NCBI RefSeq assembly: GCF_009914755.1
Contig: NC_060934.1
DNA length: 64,000 nucleotides
Source: the human T2T-CHM13v2.0 reference genome, Homo sapiens
Direction: 5' to 3' (one strand)
Notes under the pieces: model-generated
The model's database searches: none
What the model was told of the DNA's origin: nothing
What the model saw: only the letters and a program-made list of their open reading frames with translations
Made by a program: the position numbers and the translations under genes
Part shown: positions 21,245 through 55,105 of the stretch, piece after piece
Position numbering within the stretch: the first letter of the stretch is position 1
Layout of the letters: every line of letters starts with the position of its first letter

Positions 21245-21389
21245 CTAGTTTTGGTACCGGTTGTGTGTCCCAAAACTGGTATCTGTGCTTTGCAGCCTCA
21301 TCAATGTTCCTGGCTGGGCCCTGGCATGCGGATAGCAGCTCCATTGCTCTCTGGATATCCTGCAACTTCTGCATTGGAACACTGGGATT
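21245..21389 (-). CDS. NMT2: NMT2 coding exon 3 (145 nt, NPSVPMQ...[14 protein letters not shown])
   Basis: Acceptor gtcgtag|AAT, donor CTAG|GTAAG; contains the conserved YQFWDTQPV motif. Confidence 0.97.
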
Positions 21390-21919
21390 CTACGACAGCA
21401 AAGACAGACACAGAATATGAGAGAGCGGCTGCTGATGTTAAACTTGAGCAGACGCACGTGCATCTGCCTCAGAGACTACAATACCTAAACACTAACAATC
21501 CTCCTCCAAGCCCAGTCAAGGCCATGGGCTTGTGTGTTACACATGAAAATAGAAGCAAACCCTCTGTTAAAGGTAACAACAGTTGTCTAGTTTTATTGGG
21601 GCTCTGGCAGTTTGGGGAATCTAAATTGAAGCACGCTTTGCTTCAGTTTCCCATCCATCTACAAATGGTCCCCGGCATTACTCCTCTGGGGGAGACGTGC
21701 AGTGCATGCATTACTGTCATCCAACAGCCAGGCAGCCACGAGCCTTGGGTGGGGGGCACTGTCAGAGTAAATGCTCTGCAGGAGCAACGAGGGGATGAAG
21801 GAAAGAACTTCTAGAATGGAAACACAGCAGAGAAGGGAAGGGAAGGGGAGGGGAGGGAAAGAAGAGAGAGAGAGAAAACAAAGAAAGAGAAAGAGAGAGA
21901 GAAAGAAAGAGAGAGGATC

Positions 21920-22523
<604 letters not shown>

Positions 22524-23954
22524 TCAAGAAAAGAAATCTCTAACCATGCCCCTTCCTCCCGGCCACACCCTGCCCTTCTCCTGACCCTCCTGATCCTCCT
22601 GATCCTCTAGAGACAAACTCTCCCACCAGAAGGACAAGCAATTTCCTCTGTACTTCAGATCCTGGGCAACCATAGCCTGTCGTTCCCAGCCCAAGTGTTG
22701 GAAACTGGACTCCTTTTTAGGTAAAACATTACGTTTGAATTCTAAGGTTCCTTTCTCAAAGCCAATATTCCCGCCAGCTCTTGGAGATTCCCCAGTTCTT
22801 TTTTTTTTTTTTTTAATTCCTCAAATAACGTAATAATACATGGAACATGAGACTACTTGAAATGAGAAGACAGCGCAGAGGACTGAATATGGAAATCAAT
22901 GACTTTTTTCAATATGTAAAATTACTGAGACATTGTAGAACTTTGATACCATGCAAAGAATATTCTTCGCTGTAATTCAGAAAGTGGTTAGAAGTTTCAA
23001 GAGCCCTTCGGTTTTGCTGTATGTCAACACAGGGTGGACACCATTGAAAGGTACAATCGACCCTTAGAAGTTTATAAACAGCAACTTTGGACTTCTGTTC
23101 CACTTGGAATCTGAAATCTGTGGTGTGGAGCAATAATTTTAACTTGGGAAGCTTACTCATCGTACACAGCACAGAACAGGGTTTGTTTCATACAAACACT
23201 GTCAAGAACCCTAAGGAAACGAAGTTCTGAAGTCCAGCTGGAGGCAGGTGAAAGTCTTTTTGTCTCTGCTTGGAAGTCTCACAGCACAATCCAAGATGGC
23301 CACAGTTTTTGTAAGCTGTTTATCTTACATTTGTTTAACATCAAAATCATAAAGGTCCTATCTTAATGACACATACAAATTTAACAAAATACTTTTCCGG
23401 TTCTCATTATTATATCTTTGGATGACTTCTTTTCCTTGGGTGTCTTTTAAGTCCCCAACATTAAAAGGAGCAAATTTCTAGCAAAATGAAATTCATGTGT
23501 ATCTGAACTCCAACAACACCATCTATTAGAAGACCTTACAATTTAAATAGGAATTGAGATCACAGCATATTTCAACTAATAATGCTTAACTGTGCATCAG
23601 TTTAGCTTAAAATGGCAAAGTAGAGCCCAGTCTTATAAAAATAGAACTACAATGACTATAATGAATTTGTCATGGTACTTTTTCTTTCTTGATTTAATTT
23701 TTTGTTCCTTGATTTCTTTCCTGGTTTCTGAGTTAAATCTTCTAACAGTAATATATCAAACTCAAACTATTTTGCAACAGACATGAATCAGCATCTTTGT
23801 TCCACATGACCCAATGACCAAAATGACCAACTCCATGAAGAAGACTTCAGAGTGATTTATTCCCTACCTAATTAGCTCATGGGTTGACCAGCACACCTCT
23901 ACATGAAATGTCCCTTTGCGAAACATTGATATCCCAATGTTCACTATTTAAATG

Positions 23955-24283
23955 CTTTCTTTCTTCTTCTTCTTCTTTTTTTTTTTTTTTTTTTTCATTT
24001 TGAGGCAGAGTCTCACTCTGTCGCCCAGGCTGGAATGCAATGGCATGATCATGGCTCACTGTGACCTCCGCCTCCTGGGTTCAAGTGATTCTCCTGCCTC
24101 AGTTTCCTGAGTAGCTGGGATTACAGGCTTGTGCCACCACGCCTGGCTAATTTTTGTATTTTTAGTAGAGACAGGGTTTCACCATGTCGGCCAGCCTGGT
24201 CTTGAACTCCTGACATCAAGTGATCTGCCCGCCTTGGCCTCCCAAAATGTGGTGATTACAGGCATGAACAACCACATACGGCT
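23955..24283 (-). mobile_element. Alu
   Basis: Reverse Alu; TSD ctatttaaatgctttct. Confidence 0.9.
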
Positions 24284-24364
24284 CTATTTAAATGCTTTCT
24301 GAAAGTAGATTCAAATAAACACAATTTCCAAATCCACAGGGACAAAGCAGTAAGGGAAACTCAG

Positions 24365-24413
24365 CTATGATCATTTCTCATGCCTGTCCATTCACCTTCC
24401 ATAGTAGCACTAC
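24365..24413 (-). other. Decayed partner cassette exon (pseudoexon) G-SATMEGEWTGMRNDH
   Basis: Good acceptor ctcattcttcccag|GT, but the donor position reads AG|CTGAGT; 49 nt; resembles the recalled mouse GDTMEGEWIDLRMYHK. Confidence 0.6.
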
Positions 24414-24836
24414 CTGGGAAGAATGAGTGTGCATCAGGCAAGGTGAGATGAATATCTACCCGACATTAACTTCCCACGATTCCACTCCTATATAAGAGGC
24501 AGGTATATTCTCTTTTTCTTCCACACATGCTTTCTGTGGCATACTAACCAGCAACTATACTCTTTACCCATTGTTTTCCAAATTTAATAGTACCTTGGAA
24601 AAAATGTCCAAGTTTTATAACACTAAGAAGTTTATAAGAATCCAAATATCATTTTTATTTTGGTTCTTGTATGTAGACCAGAATATTCTGCAATGCAGTC
24701 CACTGTAATTTACAGTGCTATCTAGAGTTGGCATAAGCTTAAAGGGAAAGAGCCCCAGATTTTAAAAATGCAGCAGAAAAAAGCCCATCTTAAGACAATA
24801 CTGACTTCCTCCAAATTAAGAAAAGAAATTCCCTAC

Positions 24837-25223
24837 TGTGATGGTTACTACTGAGTGTCAACTTGATTGGATTGAAGGATACAAAGTATTGGTCCTGGGT
24901 GTGTCTGTGAGGGTGTTGCCAAAGGAGATTAACGTTTGAGTCAGTGGGCTGGGAAATGCAGACCCACCCTTAATCTGGGTGGGCACAATCTAATCAGCTG
25001 CCAGTGCAGCTAGGATACAAGCAGGCAGAAAAATGTGAAAAGAGAGACTGGCCTAGCCTCCCAGCCTCCATCTTTCTCCCATACTGGATGCTTCCTGCCC
25101 TCGAACATCAGGCTCCAAGTTCTTCAGTTTTGGAACTCAGACTGGCTCTCCTTGCTCCTCAGACTGCAGATGGCCTATTGTGGGACCTTATGATCATGTG
25201 AATTAATACTTAATAAACTCCCC

Positions 25224-25265
<42 letters not shown>

Positions 25266-25316
25266 CATCCATCCATCCCATTAGTTCTGTCCCTCTAGAG
25301 AACCCTGACCAATACA
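24837..25316 (+). mobile_element. MLT2A (ERVL) solo LTR
   Basis: TG...CA termini (tgtgatggtt...ccctgaccaataca), 5-bp TSD cctac at 24832-24836 and 25317-25321, internal (TCTA)n. Confidence 0.9.
25224..25278. repeat. (TCTA)n(TCCA)n microsatellite within the MLT2A LTR
   Basis: Directly visible. Confidence 0.92.
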
Positions 25317-25829
25317 CCTACCATATAATGCCAAGAGTTCGCCACTGCCTGGCTTGGCTCTAGTTTCTCATAAGTGACCAGAGAGAGGGGAAAGGCTCAC
25401 AGTCACTAGAGGTGGAAGGGATGGGCAGAGACCAATGGTGATGCTGAAAGCAACAGGAGATGTCCACGCTGCAGGTCAGGGATGCCACGTTTATCTGATG
25501 AAGCGACATTTAGAAACGGGAAGAGTGTTTTGCAAGCTTATGGTGGTATCCTCTATGAGTTACCTTGGAAAGCTGTATCTAGTGGGTAGCATATTTATTA
25601 CCCGAGAACCAAGTTGAAAAGCTAGGGAAGAAGATTCCATTTTCTTCTCACCCTGCAGTCAGTCAGGGAAAAATTGGGGCAAGTAATTTTCCTTCTCAGT
25701 GATTCCTGGTTCTTTTGTGTAAAACAGGTGACAACATCAAAACTACCTGCAAGTCTCACTTCATGGAACACAACAGAAACTCTGCATAAGAAAAAAGGAA
25801 ATCCACAAAGCTTGTAGAATGGTAACAAC

Positions 25830-25832
<3 letters not shown>

Positions 25833-25885
<53 letters not shown>
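25833..25885. repeat. (TA)n microsatellite, about 26 units
   Basis: Directly visible, perfect. Confidence 0.95.
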
Positions 25886-25889
<4 letters not shown>

Positions 25890-26099
25890 TGTTTTAGGAT
25901 GTAAAAACTCTTCAATAAAAATGCTCCAACTGGAACCTCAAGATCGAACTGCGAGTTAGAGAGAAGAGAAGGAACTGGGCTGAAGGAAGTGCAGTACCCA
26001 GGCAAAGGCACACAACTAGTGAGCAAGGGGGCAGAGACCAAGCTCAAGGTCTCAGACATCACCCCTTGAGCTGTTTCCACAATACCACATGCTACTCAC

Positions 26100-26676
<577 letters not shown>

Positions 26677-26961
26677 TGAGTTTCTTGCATCAAGAGGGCT
26701 TTGTGTTTCCCAGAGGCCCAGCATACAGGGTGCCTGGGGGTTGGCTCCACAGACAGGGATGGCTGCCATCTGTGCCACCAGACACCCACGCAGTACAATC
26801 AACCCTCTTCTTGGCCACCATCTGCCAACACGGGGCCCAGCTGGACAACTTCTGGTTTGGTTTAAACTAGGAGAATGTCAGGAACTATTTCCCACCCTTG
26901 GCATTAGAATGAAGAACGACCGCTGCAAACTGGTTTAATTCAAAGTCAACGAGAGACTTAC

Positions 26962-27004
26962 CCATGGCTGCTCCCGCTGAAATCTGCTGCCAGATGGTGT
27001 TGTG
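26962..27004 (-). CDS. NMT2: Alternative 43-nt cassette exon in NMT2 intron 2 (HNTIWQQISAGAAM-G)
   Basis: ctaattacctgaatag|CAC...ATG G|GTAAGT: perfect donor, branch-point-like CTAAT, open in phase 0; resembles the first half of the mouse Nmt2 insert as recalled. Confidence 0.75.
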
Positions 27005-27396
27005 CTATTCAGGTAATTAGACAGACACCCAGAAAAATTACAATGTGAATATCTTCTGAACGAAAAGTAATCAAATATTAAAGTGTAATTTCAAAAAAAC
27101 CTAACAAGCTCACACTGAGACTTTCTTCTAGAACGACAATCTAAATACAAATTCACTGAGAAAAGGGAAAAACACAGCAGGTATCCACACACACACAAAA
27201 GCACAGTGTACCCCTTCGTTATTTGGGTGCCAAAGTCCATTTTAAGGAGGCTGTCAAGAGCTTCCAGTTACTAGTGGCATTCAACACACAGTCACAACAA
27301 AGTCCCTACACATCTGATGCAGCAGCGCGCTAAACTGCGTAAACCCACTCATGCACGAGAAACCACACAGAGGAAAAAATAAAACAGAGCTCTCAC

Positions 27397-27532
27397 TTTC
27401 GAAGGCTGCTGAATTTTAATCTCCTGGGAATCAGATGCCGAGTCTGACTTGGTGCCTCCGGAATTTGGTTTCTCCTTTTTTCTCTTCTGTTTCTTCTTTT
27501 TCTTTTTGGCTCCCAAATACCCTCCAGGACTT
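27397..27532 (-). CDS. NMT2: NMT2 coding exon 2 (136 nt; polybasic KKKKKKQKRKKEK segment)
   Basis: Acceptor tcctgcag|A, donor AAA|GTGAGA; translates SPGGYLGAKKKKKKQKRKKEKPNSGG...QQPSK; cumulative length 246 nt. Confidence 0.97.
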
Positions 27533-45500: not shown

Positions 45501-47124
45501 GCAAGGTGCCAGCATTGTTCACTATGTCCTTCCCTGAAAACTCCCTTTGCCCACAGGTCTCACCAAAGGTGTGGCCCTCAGTGGCCATGTTGTACCACAC
45601 AATTCTCTTCTACCCCTCCCTTTCCCTTCTCCATCACAGTGGACTGGATCATGCCTGGATAATCCCTTTCTTGGCCAGAAACCAGTGAGATCCTTTCTGG
45701 AGAATCTGAACTAAGGAACAGATGCTTGGGGCAGTCTAGTTGACAGAGACTGAGACAGAAAGGGAGAGAGGTTAGAAAGACAGATGGACCTTGGGTACTT
45801 GACTTTCTATAATGTTTAATTCTAATAAAGTCCAGCCATACTTTATTTTCAGATAACCTATTGTATATTTAAATAAAACCTCCTTAAAATATTTATTTAT
45901 TTATTTATTTATTTATTTATTGAGACAGAGTCTCACTGTCGCCCAGGCTCACTGGAGTACAGTGGCACAATCTCGGCTCACTGCAGTATGTGCTTATAAA
46001 GTGATCTCCATCTCTCGGGTTCAAGCAATTCTGCCTCAGCCTCCCGATTAGCTGGGATTACAGGTGCCCGCCATCGTGCCAGACTGATTTTTGTATTTTC
46101 AGTAGAGATGGGGTTTCACCATGTAGCCCAGGCTGCTCTCGAACTACTGACCTCAGGTGATCCACCCGCCTCGGCCTCCCAAAGTGCTGGGATTACAGGC
46201 GTGAGCCACTGCGCCCAGCAAAATAAAACCTTTTACTCTAGCTGGTTGGTAGATGCTACACACACATTAAGCAACAGACGCAAAGACCCACATCTCCCAT
46301 TTGTGATTGTGGACAAGGAACTCACCTCTAGGAGCCACAGCTTGGGGCAGGAGAATGAGGGTCTTCCCGAGCAGAGGGCTGGGGAGATGAGGTGAGAGCA
46401 ACTGGGAAAGATGTCACGGGAAAGATACACTCACTAAGAGCTACAGGGCTTCCGGCAGGGGTCAGCGCCTTTGGTCATAGTGGCTGCGGAAGGCTTCATG
46501 AAAGAAAGGACATTTGGGCTGACCTTGAACTTAGAGAAGAGGAGAAGAAAGATCAGGAGACACTCTCAGAAGCAGAGGAAGCCATGACCCACAGAAAGGC
46601 GTGAGCAGTAACAAATTCCTCTTGGTGAACAATGATGTCTGACACTGAATTCAAAGTTGTTTTCTGCGCTACTCTGTAATCAGACCTCCCTCCCTCCCCA
46701 TTAGCCACAAACGCTTCAGCAAATGCTGTGCACAATAGCTGGATTTTAGTGATTCCTGGGAGGAGGGTGGTGAGAGACACAGAACTGAAGATAACCGTGT
46801 TCCACCCAAGGTCAAATGTTGAAGAAAAAGAGCACCCTAAGGACACACAGGCACAAGGAGCCCGGTGATGGGGCAAGTTGGCTGCAGTGTGGGTGTGCCT
46901 GAGGACCATGAAAACTTAAGACCCCAAGAAACCCCCATGAACATGTATCAGCTCAGGCCATTTTGTTTAGATAGTAAAGGAAAGGTGCCAGGTGCAGTGG
47001 CTCACACCTGTAATCCCAGCACTTTGGGAGGCTGAGGTGGGGAGATTCCTTGAGGTCAGGAGTTCGAGACCAGCCGGCCAACGTGGTGAAACCCCGTCTC
47101 TACTAAAAATACAAAAATTAGCTA

Positions 47125-54995: not shown

Positions 54996-55105
54996 CCTTT
55001 GGCGTGCTCCGTCTCCTCCTCATTGTCCCCGTCTATCCCGCACGTGTCCTGGTCGTCCAGTTCCAGGCTCTGCTGGCTGGCCGCAGACTCGCTGTCCTCC
55101 GCCAT
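54996..55105 (-). CDS. NMT2: NMT2 coding exon 1 (110 nt, MAEDSESAASQQ...EHAKG)
   Basis: ATG at 55105 in strong Kozak context gccgcgATGG; donor AAAGG|GTAGG; ends in phase 2. Confidence 0.97.

What the first reader, a model, noticed from the sequence alone, without database searches (positions are those of the whole stretch)
26962..27004. The surviving 43-nt exon is either a poison exon or an in-frame replacement for exon 3
Seen: spliced between exons 2 and 3 it shifts the frame to a TGA at 21303-21301, far upstream of later junctions, which predicts nonsense-mediated decay. It has the same phase pattern (0 to 1) as exon 3 (145 nt), so exon2-43nt-exon4 is in frame (...AAM-DEVITS), is 34 aa shorter, and lacks [11 protein letters not shown]. 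By homology to NMT1 structures that motif is part of the myristoyl-CoA binding region. Inference: an on/off switch, or a catalytically impaired isoform that keeps the polybasic ribosome-binding segment and could compete with active enzyme. It may already be annotated as a minor transcript.
Basis: partly seen in the sequence, partly recalled or inferred. Interest (0 to 1): 0.7.

Follow-up and report, generated by a model that had tools for sequence, protein, structure and literature searches.

The report
Old frameshifting poison exon in NMT2
A 43-base optional exon in the human NMT2 gene shifts the reading frame to an early stop, and a published table already lists it as sensitive to mRNA decay, so it likely acts as an ordinary dimmer of NMT2 levels rather than making a new enzyme form.

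Summary
The either/or resolves to poison. A supplementary table of PMC13247117 lists this exact cassette as NMD-sensitive in UPF1-depleted HCT116 cells (deltaPSI 0.28, adjusted p 1.5e-13, same stop). No support was found for exon-3 replacement: 0 of 9 proteins with the main-frame peptide join exon 4 (limited reach). Databases annotate the exon2-x-exon3 mRNA as a protein started at a +1-frame ATG in exon 1 (55023; 485 aa by calculation), seen in 24 of 123 homologues from primates to quail. That frame is open by chance in 22-29% of simulations and diverges like silent sites, so it is likely a longest-ORF artefact. Rodents and a fruit bat restore the frame with a ~50-nt partner exon, whose human copy (24413-24364) lacks its GT donor. 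The exon-alone form also occurs in rodents, so the frameshift did not arise from that loss. Verdict: a known kind of element, already tabulated; modest interest.

The parts
26962..27004 (-). 43-nt non-triplet cassette exon between NMT2 exons 2 and 3; no in-frame stop of its own
   Evidence: identical to the hg38 chr10:15140987-15141029 cassette in PMC13247117 supplement file 7 (offsets 15114024-15114029 at five landmarks)
26956..26961 (-). 5' splice site, intronic GTAAGT (consensus +1 to +6; exonic side TGG)
27005..27028 (-). 3' splice site region, 12 of 20 pyrimidines (joint lowest of the 12 acceptors tabulated). Two bat gene models splice further upstream, and their translation of this stretch matches the human one residue for residue
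   Evidence: (human +1 translation begins CLSNYLNSTT) against P0060 and P0065
27005..27396 (-). GU-rich intron 2 upstream of the exon: 25 GUGU/UGUG words in 392 nt; candidate silencer region (inferred)
   Evidence: the tile over it is the highest of 140 (24; median 3); 0 of 300 dinucleotide shuffles reach 25 (mean 11.6, max 22); partly a (GT)n run; no GTGGTGG in it
21301..21303 (-). premature TGA reached in exon 3 when the 43-nt exon is included
   Evidence: the same stop is given as sc_alt 15135332
21245..21389 (-). NMT2 exon 3 (residues 83-130), which carries the MyrCoA-phosphate-binding motif
27397..27532 (-). NMT2 exon 2 (lysine tract in the main frame; also stop-free and Arg/Lys-rich in the +1 frame)
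55021..55023 (-). second ATG of the mRNA, +1 frame, context ACA-ATG-A; in frame with the catalytic domain only when the 43-nt exon is included (485 aa by calculation)
   Evidence: start of P0006 (Homo sapiens isoform X5) and P0028 (485 aa)
55103..55105 (-). main ATG in strong context (GCG-ATG-G); no ATG in the 81-nt 5' UTR
24364..24413 (-). unannotated remnant of the ~50-nt partner exon that restores the frame in rodents and a fruit bat; acceptor intact, no GT at the donor position
   Evidence: tblastn (8 of 13 residues identical to P0079, E 0.004 within the window)

Best explanation
The 43-nt exon is a frameshifting cassette whose inclusion puts a stop 86 nt into exon 3, and it is listed as NMD-sensitive in one published human data set, so it likely works as a conserved poison exon that lowers NMT2 mRNA. 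Shown: splice-site anatomy, frameshift and stop position; a significant inclusion change and a 1.46-fold rise in NMT2 mRNA after UPF1 loss in HCT116 (published). Inferred: ribosomes start at the strong first ATG, so the included mRNA yields at most a 125-aa fragment and is degraded. Roughly 40% of nascent NMT2 transcripts would carry the exon in those cells (back-calculated PSI about 0.12 rising to about 0.40, assuming the whole expression change comes from this isoform). The exon is kept for its RNA-level role rather than its peptide. A GU-binding repressor acting on intron 2, possibly hnRNP M, likely sets inclusion (lead only). In rodents and a fruit bat a ~50-nt partner exon can turn the same exon into a 31-32-aa insert; in human that rescue is unavailable because the partner's donor is lost.
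For:: the row for NMT2 15140987-15141029 reads length 43, cassette, deltaPSI 0.279, NMD 'Sensitive', BH p 1.5e-13, expression log2FC 0.548, outcome NMD; the data are a 48-h UPF1 degron in HCT116. Its coordinates and stop match the window at five landmarks. Exon-alone inclusion appears in gene models across mammals and one bird: 24 of 123 proteins read exon 2 plus this exon in the +1 frame, 21 of them joined straight to exon 3. The unnamed record P0126 is the truncated main-frame product itself (126 aa; 108 of 125 positions identical to the human prediction). Peptide constraint is weak. In the main frame the exon differs from human at 25 of 140 residues, against 22 of 450 for exon 2. In the +1 frame it differs at 25 of 182, against 104 of 572 for exon 2. 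Species are related, so these counts are not independent.
Against: One cell line and one pipeline. The sign convention of deltaPSI was not stated in the sections read; a rise is inferred from the NMD label and the higher gene expression. The supplements of five other NMD or splicing papers had no row for the symbol NMT2 (one file unsearched in each of 43 and 51; ID-only tables would be missed). No tissue-specific or signal-dependent regulation of this exon was seen, so 'switch' is unproven. The bird evidence is a single gene model, and a search with it returned only itself (1 of 13 candidates). All cross-species support comes from predicted proteins, not from genomic alignments or reads.
Confidence: 0.75

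Rival explanations
1. Unselected leak: the exon is a real NMD substrate but only a relic of the two-exon in-frame insert of rodents, left orphaned when the partner's donor was lost, with no regulatory role.
For: The partner remnant is present without a GT donor. x plus partner gives 529-530-aa proteins in 4 rodents and 1 bat. No regulator or tissue pattern has been shown for the human exon.
Against: The exon-alone form also occurs in rodents that should still have the partner (hamster P0077, guinea pig P0108) and in quail (P0101). The acceptor flank translates identically in human and two bats. The implied inclusion before decay is high for noise.
Confidence: 0.12
2. Frame-switch isoform: leaky scanning to the +1 ATG in exon 1 makes a 485-aa active NMT2 whose acidic-then-lysine N-tail is replaced by a 69-aa Arg/Lys-rich tail, as database annotation implies.
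For: The ORF is intact from 55023 into the catalytic domain only with the exon. It is annotated in human, apes, monkeys, porpoise, stoat, squirrel, bats, hamster, guinea pig and quail. The tail has 22 K+R in 69 aa, and the ATG has A at -3. The NMT2 N-tail matters for ribosome binding (PMC12623983 section 10).
Against: An ATG plus an open +1 frame arises in 22-29% of synonymous re-codings, and any such ATG in 41-50% (20,000 draws per codon model). The +1 reading of exon 2 differs from human at 18% of residues in non-primate mammals, against 5% for the main frame. The first ATG is strong. The mRNA is NMD-sensitive. PMC6089459 states that only one human NMT2 protein has been found in tissue (passage). 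Longest-ORF misannotation of NMD targets is a described artefact (PMC12652563, abstract, Arabidopsis).
Confidence: 0.08
3. Mutually exclusive replacement of exon 3: exon2-x-exon4 gives a 464-aa protein that lacks the MyrCoA-phosphate-binding loop and would compete with active enzyme.
For: It is in frame. The lost residues match NMT1 Arg115/Tyr117/Gln118, so the product would likely be impaired.
Against: 0 of 9 stored proteins matching the main-frame peptide pattern continue into exon 4. The two searches able to find such a form returned none (4 hits, 34). The only NMT2 row in 9 supplement files of PMC13247117 is the cassette between exons 2 and 3. The exons are 5.5 kb apart, with no steric or frame reason for exclusivity, and exon 3 has a consensus donor. 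Caveat: 120 of the 154 proteins were fetched with an exon-3 query and could not show skipping, and clustering at 90% or 50% identity could hide the form.
Confidence: 0.04

Closest known systems
Non-triplet (frameshifting) poison cassette exons, AS-NMD (PMC13247117)
   Same: Skipped in the reference transcript, length not a multiple of three, no stop of its own, PTC in the next exon far upstream of the last junction, NMD-sensitive; this very exon is a row of their human table.
   Different: The host gene is a lipid-transfer enzyme, not an RNA-binding protein; no autoregulation is shown; some lineages have a frame-restoring partner exon.
Ultraconserved poison exons of SR genes such as TRA2B and SRSF3 (search listing and abstract starts only)
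   Same: Conserved exon whose inclusion triggers NMD.
   Different: Not ultraconserved: it differs from human at about 14-18% of translated positions among mammals and changes length in quail. No feedback loop tested.
Rodent/bat long NMT2 isoform (529-530 aa; P0079, P0121, P0122, P0123, P0038)
   Same: Uses the same 43-nt exon as the first half of an N-tail insert.
   Different: Needs the ~50-nt partner exon, whose human copy has no GT donor, so human is predicted not to make it.
Dual-coding exons / alternative-frame N-termini (GNAS XLas/ALEX and INK4a/ARF are recalled examples, not from a call)
   Same: The exon 1-2 sequence is open in two frames, and an alternative exon can join the second frame to the catalytic domain.
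   Different: No sign of selection on the second frame; no protein evidence seen.

Membership tests
Poison exon (AS-NMD) | Cassette exon with functional splice sites, skipped in the productive mRNA | tested here: met
   AG/GTAAGT ends; annotated in minor transcripts (hub table, P0006); cassette event row
Poison exon (AS-NMD) | Inclusion creates a PTC more than 50-55 nt upstream of a downstream junction | tested here: met
   TGA 21303-21301; 56 nt to the next junction; 9 exons and 1144 nt to the last junction
Poison exon (AS-NMD) | Included isoform is stabilised when NMD is blocked | not testable with these tools
   No RNA-seq here. Published: deltaPSI 0.279, 'Sensitive', in UPF1-degron HCT116; direction inferred
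Poison exon (AS-NMD) | Evolutionary conservation of the frameshifting inclusion | tested here: met
   21 gene models with a direct x-exon 3 join across primates, carnivores, porpoise, bats, rodents and quail, plus P0126; protein-level evidence only, bird n=1
Poison exon (AS-NMD) | Regulated inclusion that changes protein output | not testable with these tools
   Lead only: hnRNP M knockdown raises inclusion of an unspecified Nmt2 exon in mouse macrophages (PMC6981299 passage; supplements unreadable); GU-rich intron
Mutually exclusive exon pair (x versus exon 3) | Same phase pattern, so either exon keeps the frame | tested here: met
   both run phase 0 to 1
Mutually exclusive exon pair (x versus exon 3) | The two exons are not included together | tested here: not met
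   x joined to exon 3 in 21 gene models, in P0126 and in the published cassette row
Mutually exclusive exon pair (x versus exon 3) | The replacement junction (x to exon 4) is used | tested here: inconclusive
   0 of 9, but the searches had limited reach and there are no junction reads here
Dual-coding / alternative-frame N-terminus | Second frame open longer than chance | tested here: not met
   22-29% of synonymous re-codings give the same ATG and open frame
Dual-coding / alternative-frame N-terminus | Purifying selection on the second frame | tested here: not met
   exon 2: 104 of 572 residues differ in the +1 frame against 22 of 450 in the main frame (different species sets, not independent)
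Dual-coding / alternative-frame N-terminus | Translation from the second start is observed | not testable with these tools
   needs ribosome profiling or proteomics

The most novel reading that the evidence does not exclude
The 43-nt exon is a three-way frame switch. From the first ATG it destroys the mRNA. From the +1 ATG in exon 1 it gives a full catalytic NMT2 with a wholly different Arg/Lys-rich N-tail, and so altered ribosome or nuclear targeting. In rodents and some bats a partner exon, lost in human, converts it to an in-frame insert, so mouse and human would respond in opposite ways to the same splicing signal. It would also let 1-nt-deletion-type frameshift alleles placed after the +1-frame stop at 55035-55033 be rescued, making some NMT2 exon 1-2 knockouts leaky.
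Probability: 0.12. Interest if true: 0.6.

Novelty: already known. Interest (0 to 1): 0.25.

Why it matters
NMT2 levels are reported to be suppressed in some cancers, which bears on sensitivity to NMT inhibitors (PMC11075276, abstract start in the listing). An exon that may divert a sizeable share of transcripts to decay is therefore a possible handle for raising or lowering NMT2 with splice-switching oligonucleotides. It also warns that the database isoform carrying this exon is probably a mislabelled NMD substrate, and that mouse can neutralise the exon with a partner that human has lost. The mechanism class is ordinary and the event is already tabulated. The lineage comparison and the annotation point were not found in print in ten searches of a library that lacks most subscription papers.

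Tried and rejected
A de novo scan for a frame-restoring exon (length 2 mod 3, AG..GT, open frame) in the x-exon 3 intron gave 2 weak candidates, neither of them the true remnant, because the remnant has no GT. A search with the quail +1-frame N-terminus for more birds and reptiles returned only the query. The NMT2 'NMD escape' event of PMC13187750 lies at hg38 15109040-15109215, about 5 kb outside the window at the 3' end of the gene, so it is a different event. The Nmt2 mention in PMC10135431 concerns polyadenylation. The NMT evolution preprint 10.1101/2020.10.23.352898 has no occurrence of 'exon' or 'isoform'. A search for a recalled RefSeq accession with NMT2 found 0 papers. The strong-context ATG at the exon's own 3' end was considered as a start and rejected: with exon 3 it opens only 30 codons, and other mammals have Thr or Val there. 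A loose pattern for exon2-exon4 joins listed 6 proteins; all had been fetched with exon 3, so these are pattern artefacts and were not counted. Fisher p-values are not relied on because the species are related. No structure prediction was run: the question turns on splicing, and solved structures already place the motif. Earlier scan findings were not available.

Full report
Observation. The window is human NMT2 on the minus strand (hub annotation). The stretch 27004-26962 is a 43-nt exon bounded by AG and GTAAGT. Splicing the annotated exons by coordinate shows that exon 2 ends in phase 0 and that exon 3 and this exon both run phase 0 to 1. Exon1-2-x-3 read from the main ATG stops at TGA 21303-21301 (codon 126), and exon2-x-4 is in frame and 34 aa shorter. 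[quoted passage not shown]

Which junction is used. A search with exon 3 gave 209 proteins, of which the best 120 were listed and stored; 3 more came. Sorting these 123 by what precedes exon 3 gave five groups: 74 with plain exon 2-exon 3, 24 with exon 2 plus this exon read in the +1 frame, 13 with a main-frame insert of some kind, 11 without exon 2, and 1 lizard model in the +1 frame without the exon. Of the 24, 21 join the exon straight to exon 3: human (P0006), apes, monkeys, fox, cats, porpoise, bats, hamster, guinea pig and one quail (P0101, two residues longer, so 49 nt by inference). The other 3 add further sequence. A search with exon 2 among 50%-cluster representatives (34 hits; 16 displayed) added the unnamed P0126. 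It is the truncated main-frame product itself: 126 aa, 108 of 125 positions identical to the human prediction. Among all 154 stored proteins, 9 matched the main-frame peptide pattern and 0 of these continued into exon 4. That negative is limited: 120 of the 154 were fetched with exon 3, and clustering can hide a 464-aa form.

Published test. Supplement file 7 of PMC13247117 (row seen; abstract, passages and sections 9, 14, 20, 33, 34 read) lists NMT2 chr10:15140987-15141029. The row reads length 43, cassette, skipped in the reference transcript, deltaPSI 0.279, NMD 'Sensitive', BH p 1.5e-13, gene log2FC 0.548, alternative stop 86 nt into the next exon, outcome NMD. The human data of that paper are 48-h UPF1 degron HCT116 cells on GRCh38. 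Five landmarks map to the window with offsets within 5 nt of each other, so it is this exon and this stop. The sections read do not state the sign convention; a rise in inclusion is inferred from the NMD label and the higher gene level. If the whole 1.46-fold rise comes from this isoform, PSI goes from about 0.12 to about 0.40 (a rough estimate). Against this stands the lack of replication. The supplements of PMC8091538 (2 files), PMC11188260 (12 of 13), PMC6547761, PMC12644568 (9 of 10) and PMC10123112 had no hit for the symbol; I saw nothing else of those papers. Catalogues built from annotation could miss the event because the transcript is annotated as coding (inference). BioRxiv supplements were closed and may hold further rows.

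The reading the first stage missed. The mRNA has no ATG in its 81-nt leader and a strong first ATG; the second ATG (55023, cds nt 83) is in the +1 frame. With the exon included, that frame runs into the catalytic domain and gives 485 aa with a 69-aa tail holding 22 Lys+Arg. This is how the databases annotate it (P0006 is 428 aa, 57 shorter, presumably lacking one 171-nt exon; P0028 is 485 aa; that the curated human isoform 2 has 485 aa is recalled, not from a call). Two tests argue that it is a longest-ORF artefact. First, synonymous re-coding of exons 1-2 gives the same ATG with an open frame in 22-29% of 20,000 draws per codon model, and some usable +1 ATG in 41-50%. Second, exon 2 differs from human at 104 of 572 residues in the +1 frame in 13 non-primate mammal models (quail left out of the sum), but at 22 of 450 in the main frame in 10 proteins. 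The artefact is described for plants (PMC12652563, abstract only), and PMC6089459 says that only one human NMT2 protein has been found (passage). Minor leaky initiation is not excluded.

History. Four rodent proteins and one fruit-bat protein carry the exon in the main frame followed by 17-18 further residues (529-530 aa where full length and otherwise standard; P0079, P0121, P0122, P0123, P0038), which implies a partner exon of about 50 nt. tblastn places its human copy at 24414-24376 (8 of 13 identical, E 0.004 in the window). The acceptor is intact at 24413, a 50-nt reading is open, and the donor position has no GT. But exon-alone inclusion is also modelled in hamster, guinea pig and quail, so the frameshifting form is likely older than, or at least independent of, that loss; no tree test was run and the bird evidence is one model (one search found no other). 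The exon's own peptide drifts about equally in both frames (25 of 140 in the main frame, 25 of 182 in the +1 frame), unlike coding exon 2. That fits constraint on the RNA rather than on a protein and weakens every protein-isoform reading.

Regulation (lead only). The 392-nt intron upstream holds 25 GUGU/UGUG words. The tile over it is the richest of 140 in the gene, and 0 of 300 shuffles reach 25 (one of four motif classes counted; partly a GT repeat). PMC6981299 reports increased inclusion of an Nmt2 exon after hnRNP M knockdown in mouse macrophages, confirmed by RT-PCR (passages). Which exon is not stated in the passages, the supplements could not be read, and the GUGGUGG motif cited there is absent from this intron. 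The NMT2 N-tail (first 105 aa) contributes to ribosome binding (PMC12623983, passages and section 10; similar for NMT1 in PMC12858966, passages), which is why a tail swap would matter if it were real.

Verdict. The exon works like, and by the features testable here is, a non-triplet poison exon (confidence 0.75 for a conserved dosage role; the NMD sensitivity itself rests on one published data set). The exon-3 replacement fails the defining test of mutual exclusion. The event is already annotated and already tabulated as NMD-sensitive, so novelty is low. The rodent/human difference in the partner exon and the probable mislabelling of the coding isoform were not found in print in the ten searches run (listings only, except for the papers named above), and they give it modest value. 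Interest 0.25.

Noticed in passing
window 25705-25602 (-), inner acceptor at 25652: A second exon-like conserved piece in the same intron, with a GG|GTAATA donor. Stoat and ground-squirrel/marmot gene models include its counterpart after the 43-nt exon (11 of 16 residues identical to P0039; sequence). Not annotated in human.
   Followed up: partly
window 55035-55033 (-): The only +1-frame stop in exons 1-2-x-3. Frameshift alleles of the 3n-1 class placed after it would be put back in frame by the 43-nt exon.
   Followed up: partly
stored proteins: Many vertebrate NMT2 models are 441 or 428 aa, 57 aa shorter than 498 or 485, which suggests widespread in-frame skipping of a 171-nt exon (exon 7 or 9 in the window). 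Which one was not checked.
   Followed up: no
window 46326-46529 (-): The other alternative annotated exon is 204 nt (a multiple of three), with a 20-of-20 pyrimidine acceptor and a GAG|GTGAGT donor. Its reading frame was not examined.
   Followed up: no
about 5 kb before the window start (hg38 chr10:15109040-15109215): A separate NMT2 NMD-target/NMD-escape event at the 3' end of the gene is listed in PMC13187750, so the gene may have two NMD-coupled events.
   Followed up: partly
window 21389-26544 (+): The predicted antisense lncRNA LOC107984210 (hub table) covers the dead partner exon and the second exon-like piece; no link was tested.
   Followed up: no
P0117 (frog Dendropsophus): Carries an unrelated 13-aa in-frame insert at the same exon 2/3 junction, so this intron may have gained exons more than once.
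   Followed up: no
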